From the sequence record NC_100372.1: DNA of 64,000 nucleotides; one strand, given 5' to 3'. The translations under genes were made by a program, and so were the position numbers. This stretch comes from a phage. Under the pieces are notes generated by a model. That model saw only the letters and a program-made list of their open reading frames with translations. It had not been told where the DNA came from and did no database searches. This document shows positions 23,828 through 61,076 of this stretch, piece after piece (positions within the stretch are counted from its first letter, which is position 1; each line of letters begins with the position of its first letter).

Positions 23828-23963
23828 AACTGTTTATACTGTTCTTAAAGAGATTGCGTTCTACGCAGATCTTAGCCGGGCACCTTTATGGGAAAAGAAT
23901 ATGTATTTAAAATGGTGCGTGAAATTAGGGGGGCCTTCTAATGTTTCAAGCCATGTTTATTGA
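23811..23963 (+). CDS. Hypothetical protein (50 aa)
   Basis: ATG 23811 within track ORF 23766..23963. Confidence 0.4.
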   Translation: MDTAPKTVYTVLKEIAFYADLSRAPLWEKNMYLKWCVKLGGPSNVSSHVY

Positions 23964-24069
23964 AATGCTCTCTGGGGTATTACTGCTGGTAGCCATTTTG
24001 GGTGGCGCGGCACTGATGTATAATTATCTTGAAAAAGGGGACAGTAATGACAAAAAAATAAATCCTTAG
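23941..24069 (+). CDS. Single-TM mini-protein (42 aa) ending at an A7 run
   Basis: MFQAMFIEMLSGVLLLVAILGGAALMYNYLEKGDSNDKKINP. See the frameshift finding. Confidence 0.45.
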   Translation: MFQAMFIEMLSGVLLLVAILGGAALMYNYLEKGDSNDKKINP

Positions 24070-24235
24070 AACAGGCTGAAAACCTTCTCCACGAGCTGGT
24101 AAAGGAGTGGAAAGTTGAATACTCAGATTTTAATGCAAGAGAGGGGGAAGATTATTGGCCTACAGAGCGCTCAGAGGGAGAGTGGTATCAAGATTTCATA
24201 GAATGGCTATATCAGACGTGCGATGAGGGGTGACG

Positions 24236-25592: not shown

Positions 25593-25778
25593 ATGAAGCA
25601 CTATTGTCTGTCTGGTAGGATGGGGGTGGATTGTGATTGGGTTTTCTTAAAACTTGTCAGCGTTCGAGAGTCCATCCCAGAGGAAGAGCAAGAAAGTGAG
25701 CTGATGTCATGGATCAACTATTACGGCAACACTTTCCGGCATGTCAAAATGGAAGAGCTGCCAAACGAGGCTGATTGA
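25593..25778 (+). CDS. Hypothetical protein
   Basis: GGGAGGG SD upstream. Confidence 0.55.
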   Translation: MKHYCLSGRMGVDCDWVFLKLVSVRESIPEEEQESELMSWINYYGNTFRHVKMEELPNEAD

Positions 25779-25780
25779 TT

Positions 25781-25870
25781 ATGGTCGCATCAATATTAAC
25801 GTTTATGGGTGGCGTGGCATTCGGATTCATTCTTTGTCTGTTTATAGTTATCATGGCTATGCGAGGCTGA
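25781..25870 (+). CDS. Single-TM mini-peptide (29 aa)
   Basis: MVASILTFMGGVAFGFILCLFIVIMAMRG. Fills the gap between neighbouring genes exactly. Confidence 0.4.
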   Translation: MVASILTFMGGVAFGFILCLFIVIMAMRG

Positions 25871-25873
25871 ATT

Positions 25874-26158
25874 ATGAAACTGTTCGAGTGGTTTAAAAAG
25901 TTTAAATACCAGGCTGTTGCTGTATCGAAATGGACCGTCCGCTGGGTGGACGATGATGGAACACAAATTCCCGGTGATCAGGATACCGGATACTGGGTTA
26001 TGATGGAGAACGGATTTGGGAAAAGGAAGTTTAAATGTGTTGGTGCTCCTACTCTTTTAAATGTTAGAAGTGTGCCAGGGTACAGCACTATGGTTGTTTG
26101 GGAGCTATCCGGTGTTCCTCCTGCTAATGTGCAATATCTGCCAAACCCAGAAAAATAA
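25874..26158 (+). CDS. Hypothetical protein
   Basis: GAGG SD. Start as in the ORF track. Confidence 0.6.
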   Translation: MKLFEWFKKFKYQAVAVSKWTVRWVDDDGTQIPGDQDTGYWVMMENGFGKRKFKCVGAPTLLNVRSVPGYSTMVVWELSGVPPANVQYLPNPEK

Positions 26159-30553: not shown

Positions 30554-30840
30554 TGAAAGATTTGGTCAAGATCAAGATTAAAGATACCAATGGAGAACTC
30601 AGCCATTTTGGAATTAACGATGGTGACGAGCTGGTCGCCCACCTGCCTACCAAGGAAGTTGTAAGCAAGGCTGTTGCCGGAGAAGAAGATGCAATGCAGG
30701 CTGCTGGTGTGGATGAAAACTATGTAGCCATGTGCATGTGCCGAGATCAGGTTGTTCTGTATAAAGCGTATCGACCAAATGGAGCACCTGAGTGGCTTGT
30801 TTTCCGACCCGAAGGGTATGAAATTTTAGAGACACTATGA
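30553..30840 (+). CDS. Small acidic protein, same family (divergent)
   Basis: VKIKIKD...QVVLYKAYRPNGAPEWLVFRPEGYEILETL. Confidence 0.6.
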   Translation: MKDLVKIKIKDTNGELSHFGINDGDELVAHLPTKEVVSKAVAGEEDAMQAAGVDENYVAMCMCRDQVVLYKAYRPNGAPEWLVFRPEGYEILETL

Positions 30841-30920
30841 TAAATCTTGCCAAGGTTGCAATGGCACTGCTAATTATTTGCTGGATAGTGACCTTGGCAC
30901 TATGTCTTGTATTTCATTAA
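30837..30920 (+). CDS. Single-TM mini-peptide (27 aa)
   Basis: MINLAKVAMALLIICWIVTLALCLVFH. ATGA overlap with the upstream gene. Confidence 0.4.
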   Translation: MINLAKVAMALLIICWIVTLALCLVFH

Positions 30921-30929
30921 GGGGGCTGT

Positions 30930-31193
30930 ATGAACATCTTGGTGTGGGTTGTGGCAGTGGCGTTTGTTGCGTGCCTCTCTTGTTGGGTTGCTGTGAGGAT
31001 TTCTATAGCCACTCTTCGGAAATTAGGGTTCTCAGAGTGGGATATTAATATCCTTTCTTTTCGCAATGAGACAATCTCAGCCGCCCTGCTGTGCAAGAGG
31101 TTTAAGTGGGAACCTTGTGAGGTCATGAACTATCTAAGAACAGGGGATATTCCTGAGAGATTTAAAAAAGTTCTTGACGGCAAAGACAAATGA
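30930..31193 (+). CDS. Membrane-anchored hypothetical protein
   Basis: N-terminal TM ILVWVVAVAFVACLSCWVAV. AAGGGGG SD. Confidence 0.6.
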   Translation: MNILVWVVAVAFVACLSCWVAVRISIATLRKLGFSEWDINILSFRNETISAALLCKRFKWEPCEVMNYLRTGDIPERFKKVLDGKDK

Positions 31194-31202
31194 TAGTATA
31201 GT
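31174..31202 (+). promoter_or_regulatory. sigma70-type promoter
   Basis: TTGACG(31174-31179), 17 nt spacer, TATAGT(31197-31202). Confidence 0.6.
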
Positions 31203-31221
31203 GACTAACAAGAGGTGAGGA

Positions 31222-31362
31222 ATGACTGATTTTACTGAAGCTTTAATGATGGCCTTATCTGTTTTAGCGCTATCGGTGTGTTTTGGAGCGTTATTCACAT
31301 CTCTGGTTAGAGTTTTACATACCATATTATCACCCAAGGAGCACAGTAATGACGAAGATTGA
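31222..31362 (+). CDS. Single-TM mini-protein (46 aa) ending in UGA-C
   Basis: MTDFTEALMMALSVLALSVCFGALFTSLVRVLHTILSPKEHSNDED. GAGGTGAGG SD. Confidence 0.45.
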   Translation: MTDFTEALMMALSVLALSVCFGALFTSLVRVLHTILSPKEHSNDED

Positions 31363-31443
31363 CTTAAATGCTGGCGACCATTTGTTGTCAAATGCATCGG
31401 GGATTATCTTGGATTCACAATCGGCAACACTTACGAGGCGGTA

Positions 31444-31599
31444 GTGGCGAAGGTTTATCATGATAAAGTCCTCAGCCTTGTGTTTGACTGTGATGATGAC
31501 GGAGATGACCGTTACGTCTGTGAGGTGCTGGCACGTGACGATAGTGAAGACCAGAAATTCCTGGTTATTGAACTGAACGGTATTTTTGTAGAACGTTAA
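31444..31599 (+). CDS. Small acidic protein (51 aa from GTG; the open frame extends upstream to 31363 without a start)
   Basis: GTG 31444 five nt after GAGG. The frame is continuous with the 31222 ORF across its TGA. Confidence 0.35.
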   Translation: MAKVYHDKVLSLVFDCDDDGDDRYVCEVLARDDSEDQKFLVIELNGIFVER

Positions 31600-31627: not shown

Positions 31628-31933
31628 ATGGCTAAATCTAAAGTTGAACTGTTCACCTCTCTGCCTTCTGACACTGCAGAGCGTGATCGCCTCCGTAAAA
31701 CAATTGAAGAGCTGGTGGAACTTCAGCTTCAGATTAAAGATCTGAAAGACGCTATCAAGGATATTATTCTTGTCGAGAAACAGGATCATCTGTATTCTCC
31801 TAAGTTTATCAAGTCATTGGTGGCTACCGAATTCGATATCCGCTACGAAGCTGAAAAACGTCGAGCTAAAATCGAAGAAGAGGTTGAGCACATGTCTGAA
31901 GCAGACATTCTGTTCAAACGCTCTGCAGAATAA
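31628..31933 (+). CDS. Hypothetical coiled-coil protein
   Basis: AAGGAG SD. Heptad-like RKTIEELVELQLQIKDLKDAIKD. Confidence 0.65.
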   Translation: MAKSKVELFTSLPSDTAERDRLRKTIEELVELQLQIKDLKDAIKDIILVEKQDHLYSPKFIKSLVATEFDIRYEAEKRRAKIEEEVEHMSEADILFKRSAE

Positions 31934-31941
31934 CAACGAGG

Positions 31942-31965
31942 AGGGGTCTTGGCCCCTATTTTTAC
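31942..31965 (+). terminator. Rho-independent terminator
   Basis: AGGGG-TCTTGG-CCCCT followed by ATTTTTAC. Confidence 0.7.
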
Positions 31966-31986
31966 TATCTATGGAGAAGATCAGAA

Positions 31987-33237: not shown

Positions 33238-33357
33238 AGCACCGAGCCCACATAAGTTTATCATGCTAAAGCATGGCCTGAAGGGGCAAACGTGCATAAT
33301 TCCATCGTATTGGAACGTATAAACCCCGTTCACACTCTCATTTCCAGAGGAGATTTC

Positions 33358-33573
33358 ATGAAAATAGAAATATTTGGTGGGGCTGACAACACTCGTGGCC
33401 TGATTTACCTTGAATTCGATGAATCTTACCTGCCAGAGGTGTTAAATATAGATGCTGTTGCGGAAGCCCTTGATGTAGACCCTAAAGATCTCTACTCCCG
33501 TGCTGAGATTGATGGTTGGGAAGAGACTCTGAACATTGATTTCAGTGAAGTAGTAGATGAACCTTTGGACTGA
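33358..33573 (+). CDS. Small acidic protein (MKIEIFGG..., family-like)
   Basis: ATG 33358 after AGAGGAG. Last gene of the + strand arm. Confidence 0.6.
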   Translation: MKIEIFGGADNTRGLIYLEFDESYLPEVLNIDAVAEALDVDPKDLYSRAEIDGWEETLNIDFSEVVDEPLD

Positions 33574-33713
33574 CACACAAGTCTGCTTTGCAGGTTTAGC
33601 TGCTCAGCTAAGGTTCTGGAGTCACCTATAACATCTTCCAACTAAATTTCCTACCAACACAGTTACTTACCCACCACACATGACTGTTTGCTTGTTTAGT
33701 GAGCAGTCATCCC

Positions 33714-33741
33714 TTGACATTCTTGCCTATCTTGATAAAAT
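33714..33741 (+). promoter_or_regulatory. sigma70-type promoter firing into ORF-free DNA
   Basis: TTGACA(33714-33719), 16 nt spacer, TAAAAT(33736-33741). No ORF with an SD downstream. Confidence 0.5.
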
Positions 33742-33936
33742 TAAGTTCTTCTCTTTTCTTTTACCGAGTAATTCGGGTTTTCTGTTCTCTTCGGTTTGAA
33801 GGGGTATGGAGATACACCTGAGTGAACAGGGTGAACAACCGAACCTTTAGCTATGGCATTAGCATGGCGAAGCGGACGGGTGACGAAAGAGGGGCCGGAG
33901 GACACCAGTCACTGCCATATAGTATATGGGTGATAA

Positions 33937-34476
33937 CCTGAAGAGTCTGAATAAGTGTTTAAGTACCAGTCAGAGGAAAAGGTGAATGGTAGCCGAAGGG
34001 GGAGGGGGGTTTCTTATATCTTTAATTTGTATACTTTATATACACTTGTAAACCAATTCAATTAGGATCTGTTTACCACACAAAGTGGATGGAGACAAAT
34101 ATCACCTATTAAACTTGAATTATTTATAGAAAATACCACAACACCGCTTAAGTCTTTGATTTTACACACAAATCTTACAAATATCCTACCTCCATATTTA
34201 ACATACTTGTAACATATTCCATATCCTACCTGCCTGATCAATTTACTCCCACCACATTCCCACATTTTCCCTGTCTGTACTACCCCACCCCCGCCGGGAG
34301 TCCCGTCATATCTGGCTTTCCAGCAAATATCACACCCACAAATATCATCACCTGAAGAGGGTTTCATCCCATAATACCTGCCTTACCTGAAGAGCGCTTC
34401 ATACACCACCTAAATTTTTTAATTGACCCCTCCCCGCCGCCGGAGAGGTTGGCTTTTCCCACACAGGCCTGAAGAG
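33937..34476 (+). repeat. CCTGAAGAG 9-mer, 4 direct copies
   Basis: Copies at 33937-33945, 34351-34359, 34386-34394 and 34468-34476. Confidence 0.8.
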
Positions 34477-34706
34477 TCAGCCAGAAATATCTGAACAGGT
34501 CCAGTTATGCCCCGATTTTGTGCTTGTCCTACAGGAGTGCTGCCCTGTCAGGAGCCGGTAGCGACTGGAGTGCTGCCAGGCGGACGGAATGGGAATACTT
34601 CTCATTTTTATAATAATTCTCAAATATCGAGGCAGTGAGGCAAATTAATAGGCCAGGCCGTTCACACAGTGGCACAACATTTGCAATCTATCTTGTGGGA
34701 GTGAAT

Positions 34707-34740
34707 GAGAATACCTATCATTGTGAGAATGGTTATCATT
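34707..34740. promoter_or_regulatory. Two adjacent Fur-box-like sites (GAGAATNNNTATCATT)
   Basis: GAGAATACCTATCATT (34707-34722) and GAGAATGGTTATCATT (34725-34740). The second matches 13/19 of GATAATGATAATCATTATC. Confidence 0.4.
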
Positions 34741-35038
34741 ACGGGCAATTTAACATAATACCTATTATGCGCACCACTGGCGATACATACAGGGATTGAT
34801 AACATGGGTTACTGTTTACGCACATAACAATTATATTTATTACTATTTGTGTGGGATATAGTTAGCAACCAATAGATTAGATATTGACCTGCAGACTTCT
34901 GACCGTCCAGACGTCTAAACGCCCACACAACAAGGATTATACATACATTCCTGAATGTAAACAGGGCCGCAAAAAATGCTACCATACCAGTTTGTAAATT
35001 TTTCATGCAGCACTTGACAAAGAGGAGAAAAACTTGTC

Positions 35039-35100
35039 TGACACAATGTGACAAAATTGCCACTTTTGACACTTTTACCTTTGACACAATATGACACAAT
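35039..35100 (+). repeat. TGACACAAT iteron cluster (5 copies, 3 perfect)
   Basis: Perfect copies at 35039-35047, 35082-35090 and 35092-35100. Variants at 35049 (TGACAAAAT) and 35067 (TGACACTTT). Confidence 0.8.
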
Positions 35101-35193
35101 AACGGCTGTTACTATTCCATATCTCACTGTTTACGTATAGACTGTTTACGCCTGAATAGTTTACGCCCAAACTGTTTACACAGAGATGATAAG

Positions 35194-35432
35194 CCATGAC
35201 ATTCGTTTGCATGAAAACAATTAACAAGTTAATAATATATGACATAATATAAAAGCAGGGCAACTATTAGAAGATCTATAGTTGCCTTGCTTGTTATGTC
35301 ATGATTAACTAAATACAAGGCAACTATGATCTGAATAATAGATTGCAGAAAAACTATCACGGGGGTGATTGTTACTGCTTTTATATTATGTCGCGACTCC
35401 GTCGCGCCATGCCATTCGTTTGCATAGTTGCC
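35194..35432. repeat. Nested direct-repeat / inverted-repeat / palindrome structure
   Basis: 19-nt DR CCATGaCATTCGTTTGCAT (35194-35212 and 35407-35425, 1 mismatch). 18-bp perfect IR GACATAATATAAAAGCAG (35241-35258) / CTGCTTTTATATTATGTC (35375-35392). GGCAACTAT/ATAGTTGCC at 35259, 35278, 35319 and 35424. Confidence 0.85.
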
Positions 35433-36040
35433 TTATTGTTACAGGTAAAACAATTACATTATTAATTATTTCTTATCTTTCTCTTAGTCATCTAATGATT
35501 CCAGTCAGTATAGTAATGTACAGTAAACATTAGACGACTAAAGATTTCTCTGTGTATAATAACTTATCGTGACAATTTCGAACTGTTTACGAAAAATGTT
35601 GACACCTGAGCTGATTTATGTTATGCAGTTTACACGAATAATTATTTTATGCAGGTATTGACTATTCCGTTATTCTGTGGTTGGAATAAATACTTTGCAG
35701 ACTATAGAATGGCGTGCGTACGTGAATTCTGAGATCTGGCGGCTATAGTTATACTCGATTTTTCGCGTAGAACACGCTTTCGATGCTGTGTAAGTGTATG
35801 ACTTATAAAGATTTTTAGTTGTTGACAAGATATTGGAGATGTGCATCAGGTTAAAATTTGTGCAATAGCGGCATTACGTGCACTTTTGGGAGAGAAAACG
35901 GGTAAAAATGGCCCTGCTACCACACAATGAAAGATTATGCAATGGTTATTTTCCATGTATATTTGTACAGTATGTGGGATTGATGGCTAGTCAATTATTC
36001 CACTTGCCAGGTAGGGCCGTTTATGGTAGGAGAAGAGCAG

Positions 36041-36069
36041 ACAAAAAGAAAGGGGCCTTTAAGCCCCTT
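36041..36069 (-). terminator. Rho-independent terminator ending the - strand arm
   Basis: On the - strand: AAGGGGC-TTAAAG-GCCCCTT followed by TCTTTTTGT. Confidence 0.8.
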
Positions 36070-36087
36070 GATAATTCAGTTAAGAAA

Positions 36088-36507
36088 TTATAATGATTCG
36101 TATATTTCAAAAATCCGATTTGCCAGGTCGTTACGGTAGCGGAATTTTTCATCGCGCTTGATCATTAAATCCTTATAGCCGTACTCTTTAAGCACTTCAT
36201 TAACTTTATAGCGGCATACCTGCATATTATCTTGAGCGTCACCAATAAACTTGTTGCTGTGGTGCATTGCTTTAATTTCTTCTTCCAGGACCAGGGCAAC
36301 TACCCGGACCGGATCAAGCTGGTAGGCGGTAACATCTATGCGGCATTGTAGACGGCTTTTAACGTCTGCCACCGGATATACTGCAACCTCTTCCCCGTCA
36401 ACATTGACAATAATTAGTTTACCATCGATTTCGAATCCTTTCGCCGCCGGACCGTGACAAAAAGCGTTATCAAAGCTATATGCCGGATTATCAGATTTAA
36501 TGTTCAT
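36088..36507 (-). CDS. Hypothetical protein
   Basis: AGAGG SD. Own promoter at 36557-36585. Confidence 0.65.
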   Translation of the reverse strand: MNIKSDNPAYSFDNAFCHGPAAKGFEIDGKLIIVNVDGEEVAVYPVADVKSRLQCRIDVTAYQLDPVRVVALVLEEEIKAMHHSNKFIGDAQDNMQVCRYKVNEVLKEYGYKDLMIKRDEKFRYRNDLANRIFEIYESL

Positions 36508-61006: not shown

Positions 61007-61076
61007 CGTTTGGTGCTCTCCTCAGTTTTGTGGGGAGGAGTTCCTCCCCCTTTTTTTTTTTTATACTCACATCTTA

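What the first reader, a model, noticed from the sequence alone, without database searches (positions are those of the whole stretch)
31222..31599. Mini-TM ORF terminated by the leaky context UGA-C and followed in-frame by 78 sense codons with no ATG
The 46-codon TM ORF (31222..31362) stops at TGA (31360-31362), followed by C. This is known to be one of the least efficient termination contexts in E. coli.

The same frame stays open to 31599 and encodes a domain resembling the small-protein families: LKCWRPFVVKCIGDYLGFTIGNTYEAVVAKVYHDKVLSLVFDCDDDGDDRYVCEVLARDDSEDQKFLVIELNGIFVER. The conserved-looking N-terminal part lies upstream of the only candidate start (GTG 31444).

An out-of-frame ATG at 31349 yields only 31 codons. 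The options are UGA read-through giving a membrane-tethered isoform, initiation at GTG giving a truncated domain, or a recent pseudogene.

A second case has the same geometry. The 25781..25870 TM peptide is followed by TGA-ATT-ATG, in frame with 25874..26158.
Basis: partly seen in the sequence, partly recalled or inferred. Interest (0 to 1): 0.5.

Follow-up and report, generated by a model that had tools for sequence, protein, structure and literature searches.

The report
Ordinary phage gene with one-base deletion
The apparent "leaky stop followed by a start-less domain" is an ordinary, conserved 83-codon phage gene with its own ATG and ribosome-binding site, which in this one genome has lost a single G, so it is a fresh frameshift or a sequencing error and not a read-through signal.

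Summary
The window is an rV5/FV3-like Escherichia myophage (Vequintavirus).

In all 117 related phage records, the "start-less domain" is a conventional 83-aa gene. It is FV3ORF148, and it matches phrog_12851 end to end. It starts at the ATG equivalent to window 31349, behind a strong AAGGAG ribosome-binding site, and it overlaps the 46-aa membrane mini-gene by 14 nt.

The window alone lacks one G between 31381 and 31382 (CATGTTG to CAT-TTG). The ATG lies in the +1 frame of the membrane ORF. A 1-nt deletion therefore automatically puts the remaining 72 native codons in frame with that ORF.

- With the G restored, the protein is 100% identical to the consensus.
- The deletion allele occurs in no other public sequence searched.
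- A 60%-identical relative keeps the same two-gene overlap, but its membrane ORF ends in UAA-U, not UGA-C.
- No slippery heptamer is present.

Whether the deletion is a real recent mutation or a base-calling error cannot be decided without the reads.

The "second case" (25781..26158) is two adjacent genes. The downstream one has its own Shine-Dalgarno sequence (SD) and ATG. The upstream one sits on a 97-nt cassette that some relatives lack. Interest is low.

The parts
31174..31202 (+). Promoter-like site (TTGACG-17-TATAGT, 10/12) just upstream of the TM mini-gene. It is a possible start of the small transcription unit.
   Evidence: consensus scan only: 4 sites found against 3.4 expected in shuffles, so the evidence is weak.
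31222..31362 (+). 46-aa single-pass membrane mini-protein gene (FV3ORF147 homologue, phrog_16755). Its SD GAGGTGAGG lies at 31212-31220. Its stop is TGA at 31360-31362, followed by C.
   Evidence: phrog_16755 matches 46/46 with E=5e-35. Annotated in S127 BCL3, FV3, NHEP1 and ECP26. A homologous 45-aa ORF sits at the 60%-identity locus. KD(19)=2.34.
31336..31341 (+). Shine-Dalgarno AAGGAG for the 83-aa gene, 7 nt upstream of ATG 31349. It is embedded in the last codons of the TM ORF.
   Evidence: Annotated as a ribosome_binding_site in phage Murica. Invariant in alignment A1.
31349..31599 (+). Disrupted copy of the conserved 83-aa gene (FV3ORF148 / phrog_12851). It is 251 nt here and 252 nt in every relative. 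It overlaps the TM ORF by 14 nt.
   Evidence: tblastn found an intact single-piece ORF in 117/117 records. phrog_12851 matches 1-83/83 with E=1e-57. With the G restored it is 100% identical to the consensus.
31381..31382 (+). Site of the private 1-nt deletion. Relatives read CAT-G-TTG-TTG; the window reads CAT-TTG-TTG. The deletion lies after codon 11.
   Evidence: Alignments. The deletion-allele probe or pattern gave 0 hits in phages, IMG/VR, metagenomes and genomes. Wild-type controls were positive.
31349..31444 (+). The reading frame actually initiated in this window. It has 11 native codons plus 20 out-of-frame codons, then TAG (31-aa aberrant peptide).
31444..31599 (+). GTG-initiated 51-codon remnant (native residues 33-83). 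The GTG overlaps the TAG of the 31-aa frame (TAGTG), and GAGG at 31435-31438 lies 5 nt upstream. Re-initiation is possible but unproven.
   Evidence: The same nucleotides encode E-A-V-V in intact relatives, so the 'start' is fortuitous.
31628..31933 (+). Next gene of the unit, a 101-aa transcriptional-regulator-like protein (phrog_639).
   Evidence: E=1e-21. Annotated 'transcriptional regulator' in FV3 and NHEP1.
31942..31967 (+). Intrinsic-terminator-like hairpin plus T tract that closes the unit.
   Evidence: Annotated as a terminator in phage Murica.
25775..25870 (+). The 'second case', upstream part: a 29-31-aa TM mini-ORF on a ~97-nt cassette bounded by CGAGGCTGA direct repeats. Some relatives have the cassette and others lack it.
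   Evidence: Annotated in NHEP1. KD(19)=2.6.
25874..26158 (+). The 'second case', downstream part: a conventional 94-aa gene (phrog_8932) with its own GAGG SD (25863-25866) and ATG.
   Evidence: (E=4e-40). It is present with the same ATG in relatives that lack the TM cassette.

Best explanation
The locus is an ordinary pair of overlapping early genes of an rV5/FV3-like Escherichia phage. A 46-aa membrane mini-protein gene comes first. An 83-aa acidic, probably all-beta soluble protein gene follows. The second gene starts at its own ATG (window 31349), behind its own AAGGAG, 14 nt before the first gene's stop codon.

In this genome a single G is missing after codon 11 of the second gene (between 31381 and 31382). 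The ATG is in the +1 frame relative to the membrane ORF. Removing one base therefore drops the remaining 72 native codons into the membrane ORF's frame. That creates the illusion of a stop codon followed by an in-frame, start-less domain.

What is shown: the deletion, its uniqueness, the frame arithmetic, and the conservation of the intact gene.

What is inferred: ribosomes start at ATG 31349, make a 31-aa aberrant peptide and stop at TAG 31442-31444. Some may re-initiate at the overlapping GTG 31444 to give a 51-aa C-terminal fragment. Any TM-domain fusion through UGA read-through would be an incidental, low-level by-product.

The deletion is either a very recent loss-of-function mutation in a dispensable accessory gene or a base-calling/assembly error. 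I rate these as roughly equally likely. The sequence alone cannot separate them.
For: - The window is a Vequintavirus: 117 related records, best 98% identity.
- Relatives annotate a 252-nt CDS that starts at the ATG equivalent to 31349 and ends at the same TAA.
- The alignment shows a single gap in the window at CAT[G]TTG.
- tblastn with the reconstructed 83-aa protein gave 117/117 records with at least 80% of the protein in one place, all at 95% identity or more. All 60 listed rows were a single uninterrupted piece.
- phrog_12851 is matched over positions 1-83 of 83.
- Among six close genomes, 18 of 19 variable sites beyond the overlap are third-codon positions and 17 are synonymous. This indicates strong purifying selection on the ATG-initiated frame.
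- With the G restored, the window's product is 100% identical to S127, Murica, NHEP1 and ECP26. It carries only one private, synonymous substitution.
- 31349-31222 = 127 = 3x42+1.
- In relatives the post-UGA frame is 33 junk codons followed by stops.
- The deletion allele is absent from phages, IMG/VR, metagenome and genome collections, with positive wild-type controls.
- Distant homologues (60% identity) are 83-84 aa, start MEKINLQPGD, and keep the 14-nt overlap with a 45-aa TM ORF that ends UAA-U.
- The same gene is independently disrupted by a 13-nt insertion in two Logan assemblies, which suggests it is dispensable.
- The window has a second private frameshift (A7 instead of A6) in another small gene.
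Against: Nothing contradicts the deletion itself. What remains open is its nature.

- The missing G is not in a homopolymer, so it is not the classic homopolymer error.
- The window's count of private 1-nt indels is 7. Three relatives have 4-10. The window is therefore not an obviously error-prone assembly.
- No expression data exist, so the fates of the 31-aa and 51-aa products are inference.
Confidence: 0.93

Rival explanations
1. Programmed UGA-C read-through: the membrane mini-protein is extended past its leaky stop into the downstream domain, giving a membrane-tethered isoform.
For: - In this window the frame is open from the UGA to 31599.
- UGA is the leakiest stop in E. coli K-12. The base after the stop modulates termination, and UGA read-through products have been demonstrated (PMC5373646).
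- That UGA-C specifically is among the weakest contexts is from my own knowledge (Poole et al. 1995), not tested here.
Against: - The in-frame relation exists in none of 117 relatives. There, read-through gives 33 unrelated codons.
- The T-G-A-C bases are fixed by the overlapping gene's Ile-Asp codons (ATT GAC).
- At the homologous locus of a 60%-identity relative the stop is UAA-U.
- All homologues are free-standing 83-84-aa proteins.
- The fusion would carry 6 non-native linker residues and lack the native N-terminal 12 residues.
Confidence: 0.02
2. Programmed -1 ribosomal frameshifting or transcriptional slippage restores the full-length protein from ATG 31349 despite the missing base.
For: - A -1 shift anywhere between 31363 and 31441 would give a near-native protein.
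- TTG at 31382-31384 could in principle re-pair on TTT at 31381-31383.
Against: - No X_XXY_YYZ heptamer in any frame in 31340-31450.
- No nucleotide run long enough for transcriptional slippage at the site.
- No Rfam element in the window.
- The allele is private to one genome, so there has been no evolutionary maintenance of a recoding site.
Confidence: 0.02
3. The deletion is real and the functional product is now a 51-aa domain made from GTG 31444, by termination-reinitiation at the TAGTG overlap. This would be a viable split or truncated gene rather than a dead one.
For: - GTG 31444 overlaps the TAG of the 31-aa frame and has GAGG 5 nt upstream.
- A comparable 52-aa C-terminal ORF was called in two other assemblies with an independent disruption.
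Against: - The fragment lacks native residues 1-32. These include the two predicted N-terminal beta strands (residues 11-16 and most of 28-36) and many invariant residues such as C16, I17, Y20-T24, G26 and Y29-A31.
- The GTG and GAGG are ordinary sense codons in intact relatives.
- No selection evidence is possible for a private allele.
Confidence: 0.05

Closest known systems
FV3ORF148 (YP_007006319.1) and its equivalents in S127 BCL3 (WGL32870.1), Murica (AKU44235.1), NHEP1 (XUK81797.1) and ECP26 (QDB73589.1). These are hypothetical proteins of rV5-like phages, family phrog_12851.
   Same: Same position, same flanking genes, same ATG, SD and stop. The sequence is 100% identical at protein level once the missing G is restored.
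   Different: The window copy is 251 nt, not 252 nt. It is frameshifted after codon 11.
FV3ORF147 (YP_007006318.1), a 46-aa membrane mini-protein, family phrog_16755.
   Same: Full-length match (46/46) with one conservative K30R difference. It has the same 14-nt overlap with the next gene.
   Different: No difference of note. Its TGA-C stop is shared by close relatives but is TAA-T in the 60%-identity homologue.
Programmed stop-codon read-through in phages, for example the Qbeta A1 coat extension through UGA (own knowledge).
   Same: A UGA stop followed by an open in-frame extension without its own ATG.
   Different: Here the extension has its own conserved ATG and SD in another frame. The in-frame relation is private to one genome and caused by a 1-nt deletion. 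The stop context is not conserved.
Independently disrupted allele of the same gene in Logan assemblies ERR10755697 and ERR10755745 (P0004).
   Same: The same gene is split into an N-terminal 42-aa ORF and a C-terminal 52-aa ORF. This shows the gene tolerates disruption, or is prone to assembly problems.
   Different: A different lesion, a 13-nt insertion with local changes at about codon 32, in a Murica-like background.

Membership tests
phrog_12851 / FV3ORF148 family (83-aa rV5-like phage protein) | End-to-end sequence match to the family profile, including the N-terminus encoded from the ATG. | tested here: met
   The reconstructed protein matches positions 1-83 of 83 with E=1.3e-57. tblastn gave 95-100% identity in 117 records.
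phrog_12851 / FV3ORF148 family (83-aa rV5-like phage protein) | Intact, uninterrupted reading frame. | tested here: not met
   A 1-nt deletion between 31381 and 31382 splits it into a 31-codon frame and a 78-codon frame. It is a disrupted member.
Programmed stop-codon read-through | The downstream extension is in frame with the upstream ORF in related genomes. | tested here: not met
   In relatives the post-UGA frame is 33 unrelated codons and then stops. The domain lies in the +1 frame.
Programmed stop-codon read-through | A leaky stop and its context are conserved across homologous loci. | tested here: not met
   TGA-C occurs in close relatives, where it is forced by the overlapping ATT GAC codons. 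The 60%-identity locus has TAA-T.
Programmed stop-codon read-through | The extension lacks an independent initiation site. | tested here: not met
   ATG 31349 with AAGGAG 7 nt upstream is conserved and annotated as the start in relatives.
Programmed stop-codon read-through | A read-through product is detectable. | not testable with these tools
   Needs a reporter assay or mass spectrometry.
Programmed -1 ribosomal frameshift (dnaX or tail-chaperone G/GT type) | A slippery X_XXY_YYZ heptamer in the zero frame within the overlap window. | tested here: not met
   None in 31340-31450 in any frame.
Programmed -1 ribosomal frameshift (dnaX or tail-chaperone G/GT type) | The two-frame arrangement is conserved among relatives. 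| tested here: not met
   All relatives encode the protein in a single frame. The allele is private.
Recent frameshift pseudogene or sequencing error | A single indel relative to otherwise near-identical intact orthologues, with no further decay. | tested here: met
   One gap and one private synonymous substitution. The restored product is 100% identical to the consensus.
Recent frameshift pseudogene or sequencing error | The indel is supported, or contradicted, by the raw reads. | not testable with these tools
   No reads are available. The window's private small-indel count (7) is within the range of three relatives (4-10), so assembly quality gives no verdict.

The most novel reading that the evidence does not exclude
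The deletion is genuine, and in this isolate the weak UGA-C stop of the membrane mini-gene lets a small fraction of ribosomes read on. That would create a new 125-aa membrane-anchored version of a normally soluble early protein: a gene fusion caught at birth. Alternatively, the gene now works as a split pair through TAG/GTG re-initiation.
Probability: 0.03. Interest if true: 0.3.

Novelty: not a real feature. Interest (0 to 1): 0.05.

Why it matters
It matters mainly as a negative result and a method lesson. When a small gene overlaps its upstream neighbour in the +1 frame, any 1-nt deletion near its start produces a 'stop codon followed by an in-frame start-less domain' and mimics read-through. 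Comparison with one close relative resolves it.

For anyone annotating this genome, positions 31381/31382 and 24052-24058 should be checked against the reads. The two genes should be annotated either as intact (if the indels are errors) or as frameshifted pseudogenes. If the indels are real, they add to evidence that these two small early genes of rV5-like phages are dispensable.

Tried and rejected
1. Read-through module: rejected on comparative grounds.
2. Programmed -1 frameshift: no slippery heptamer and no Rfam element.
3. Deciding error versus mutation from assembly quality: a 4-genome MAFFT comparison gave 7 private small indels for the window against 4-10 for relatives, which is inconclusive.
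4. Looking for the same allele elsewhere:
   - Allele-specific 40-nt megablast probe.
   - Exact-pattern scans of IMG/VR, metagenome and genome collections.
   - Exact-product look-ups of the 31-aa and 51-aa ORFs.
   - All were negative, with positive controls for the wild-type allele.
5. Function of the 83-aa protein:
   - Pfam gave nothing, and the PHROG family has unknown function.
   - blastp found no paralogue in the window.
   - The homologue search found only 4 clusters.
   - The AlphaFold model from 3 sequences has low confidence (pLDDT 59.5, five beta strands).
   - Foldseek against PDB gave no hit with E<=0.001. The best hits were small SH3/Tudor/KOW-like barrels at E 0.1-1. This is only a weak hint of a small beta-barrel.
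6. Indel at window 51300 as a third CDS frameshift: rejected. It lies upstream of the likely true start (MEQMNDQ...), and it is S127 that is the odd one out, not the window.

Full report
**Observation**

The region reads exactly as the first-stage reader described.
- ORF 31222..31362 encodes a 46-aa peptide with a hydrophobic core. The Kyte-Doolittle mean over its best 19 residues is 2.34.
- It ends in TGA (31360-31362), followed by C.
- The same frame runs on for 78 sense codons to TAA at 31597-31599.
- The first canonical start in that stretch is GTG 31444.
- The ATG at 31349 is in another frame and gives 31 codons.

A stop-free run of 78 codons is unlikely by chance (about 2%, my own arithmetic). 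So the stretch is genuine coding sequence, and the question is how it is expressed.

**What the window is**

A 1.2-kb query around the site matches 117 phage records at 90-98% identity. All are rV5/FV3-like Escherichia myophages of the genus Vequintavirus. The closest is S127 BCL3 at 98%.

**What relatives have at this site**

S127 BCL3, FV3, Murica, NHEP1 and ECP26 all annotate two overlapping genes here.
- The first is the 46-aa ORF, which is not annotated in Murica.
- The second is a 252-nt, 83-aa gene. It starts at the ATG equivalent to window 31349 and ends at the same TAA as window 31599.
- Its product is MTKIDLNAGDHVVVKCIGDYLGF...NGIFVER.
- The ATG sits 7 nt behind AAGGAG (31336-31341). 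Murica annotates this as a ribosome-binding site.

The nucleotide alignment shows one gap. Relatives read GACCATGTTGTTGTC and the window reads GACCAT-TTGTTGTC, so a G is missing between 31381 and 31382.

**Why the geometry arises**

ATG 31349 lies 127 nt (3x42+1) after ATG 31222, which is the +1 frame of the membrane ORF. Deleting one base after codon 11 moves the remaining 72 native codons back by one, into the membrane ORF's frame.

The 'in-frame, ATG-less domain after a stop' is therefore an automatic consequence of the deletion. The 'conserved-looking N-terminal part upstream of the GTG' is simply residues 13-32 of the normal protein. In S127 the frame following the UGA reads 33 unrelated codons and then hits stops.

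**Strength of the comparative evidence**

- tblastn with the reconstructed 83-aa protein finds it in all 117 records. Each has at least 80% of the protein in one place at 95% identity or more, and 94 records are at 99% or more. All 60 listed rows are a single uninterrupted piece.
- The protein matches phrog_12851 over positions 1-83 of 83 (E=1e-57). The membrane peptide matches phrog_16755 over 46 of 46.
- Across six close genomes, 18 of the 19 variable sites in the non-overlapping part of the 83-aa gene are third-codon positions, and 17 are synonymous. This indicates strong purifying selection on the ATG-initiated frame.
- With a G put back, the window's product is 100% identical to that of S127, Murica, NHEP1 and ECP26. 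The window carries only one private substitution in the gene, and it is synonymous. The lesion is therefore very recent or not real.

**More distant relatives**

A search of about 5.8 billion proteins returned only four clusters.
- Two clusters, at about 60% identity, are 83-84 aa and begin MEKINLQPGD.
- Their loci keep the same architecture. A homologous 45-aa membrane ORF overlaps the 84-aa gene by 14 nt.
- There the membrane ORF ends in TAA followed by T, not TGA-C. The 'leaky' context is therefore not a conserved property of the module.
- In the close relatives the T-G-A-C bases are the overlapping gene's ATT GAC (Ile-Asp) codons.
- No homologue is fused to a membrane segment.

**Is the allele seen elsewhere?**

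A 40-nt probe in which every 28-mer spans the deletion junction finds nothing among 50,697 phage records. The corresponding wild-type probe finds 44.

Exact-pattern scans for the deletion allele are negative in three collections:
- IMG/VR
- JGI metagenomes
- the 185,579-species genome set

The wild-type pattern hits two IMG/VR contigs. Exact look-ups of the 31-aa and 51-aa products find no record. The allele is private to this genome.

**Mutation or error?**

I aligned the window with the corresponding 50-68 kb of S127, NHEP1 and ECP26.
- The window has seven private 1-nt indels. Six are +1 extensions of short runs, and one is the G deletion.
- The relatives have four to ten each, so the assembly is not obviously error-prone.
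- Only two of the seven indels fall in coding sequence, and both are frameshifts. One is this deletion. The other is A7 in place of A6 at 24052-24058, which breaks a 61-aa gene (phrog_8789) three codons after its ATG.
- Deposited relatives also contain split genes, such as thyX in ECP26.
- The same 83-aa gene is independently disrupted by a 13-nt insertion in two Logan assemblies. The gene is therefore probably dispensable.

I cannot decide between a genuine recent loss-of-function mutation and a base-calling error. The reads would settle it.

**Expression in this genome if the deletion is real (inference)**

- Ribosomes initiate at ATG 31349, read 11 native and 20 foreign codons, and terminate at TAG 31442-31444.
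- That TAG overlaps GTG 31444 (TAGTG), and GAGG lies 5 nt upstream. Some re-initiation giving native residues 33-83 is possible.
- That fragment lacks the two predicted N-terminal strands and many invariant residues.
- There is no X_XXY_YYZ slippery heptamer in any frame between 31340 and 31450. There is no Rfam element anywhere in the window.
- UGA is the weakest stop in E. coli K-12, and read-through products are documented (PMC5373646). A trace of a 125-aa fusion cannot be excluded, but it would be an accident of the deletion and not a designed isoform.

**The second case**

The 29-31-aa membrane ORF at 25775/25781..25870 lies on a roughly 97-nt cassette bounded by CGAGGCTGA repeats.
- The query spanning the cassette is covered in full by eight records (ECP26, B9-1, BP9, NHEP1, SYGMH1, VB-EcoM-WM and the two FV3 entries). 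The cassette is absent from S127, YP-6 and HMD-6.
- In S127, which lacks it, the same downstream ATG directly follows the upstream gene.
- The downstream gene 25874..26158 (phrog_8932) has its own GAGG and ATG.
- The stop context there is TGA-A.
- Two adjacent genes share a frame one time in three, so nothing suggests read-through.

**Function**

Both proteins are of unknown function.
- Pfam gives nothing for the 83-aa protein.
- A low-confidence AlphaFold model (pLDDT 59.5) predicts five beta strands.
- Foldseek finds only non-significant similarity to small SH3/Tudor/KOW-like barrels.
- The pair lies in a short unit with a regulator-like gene (phrog_639). The unit runs between a promoter-like site at 31174-31202 and a terminator at 31942-31957.

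**Verdict**

Novelty is nil and interest is low.

Noticed in passing
window 24047-24233 (A run at 24052-24058): A second private frameshift. A7 replaces the A6 of relatives, so a TAA falls after codon 4 of a conserved 61-aa gene (MTKNKSLEQAENLL..., phrog_8789). It also extends the upstream 39-aa membrane mini-ORF (23941..) by 3 codons. The A7 allele was found in no phage record or IMG/VR contig. The A6 control was found in 13 records. An A7 run could allow some transcriptional or +1 slippage.
   Followed up: partly
window 25775-25871: A roughly 97-nt cassette encoding a 29-31-aa membrane peptide, bounded by CGAGGCTGA direct repeats that duplicate the ribosome-binding site. A 571-nt query spanning it is covered in full by 8 related records and has a cassette-sized gap in S127 BCL3, YP-6 and HMD-6. 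It looks like gain or loss by recombination between repeated RBS sequences.
   Followed up: partly
window 23941-24069, 25781-25870, 30837-30920, 31222-31362: A recurring architecture in this early-gene block. Very small single-pass membrane ORFs (27-46 aa, KD19 2.2-2.9) sit immediately upstream of, or overlap, a small gene. The 23941 and 31222 modules share the junction sequence AGTAATGAC and a C-terminal ..SND.. tail, which hints at paralogy.
   Followed up: no
L009 1395-1659 and L010 174-438 (Logan ERR10755697, ERR10755745): An independent disrupted allele of the same 83-aa gene in two other assemblies. A 13-nt insertion plus local changes at about codon 32 splits it into 42-aa and 52-aa ORFs.
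   Followed up: partly
window ~61030-61060: The window lacks the roughly 1.34-kb DNA methyltransferase gene that S127 BCL3 (L005 14881-16224) and NHEP1 carry at this position. The junction has a long T run.
   Followed up: no
window ~2031-2257: An extra roughly 220-nt segment relative to S127 BCL3. It corresponds to a small hypothetical gene present in NHEP1 and ECP26.
   Followed up: no
window ~33300-36200: A gene-poor, indel-rich stretch at the switch from plus-strand to minus-strand genes, with 15-nt and 46-nt indels relative to S127. There are no tRNA genes (ARAGORN) and no Rfam family hits anywhere in the window.
   Followed up: no
related records; L008 10135-11113: 18 GenBank records named 'Campylobacter phage' are rV5-like Escherichia phage genomes. 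Deposited relatives also carry split genes, such as thymidylate synthase in ECP26. Single-base frame breaks are therefore common in this group's records.
   Followed up: no
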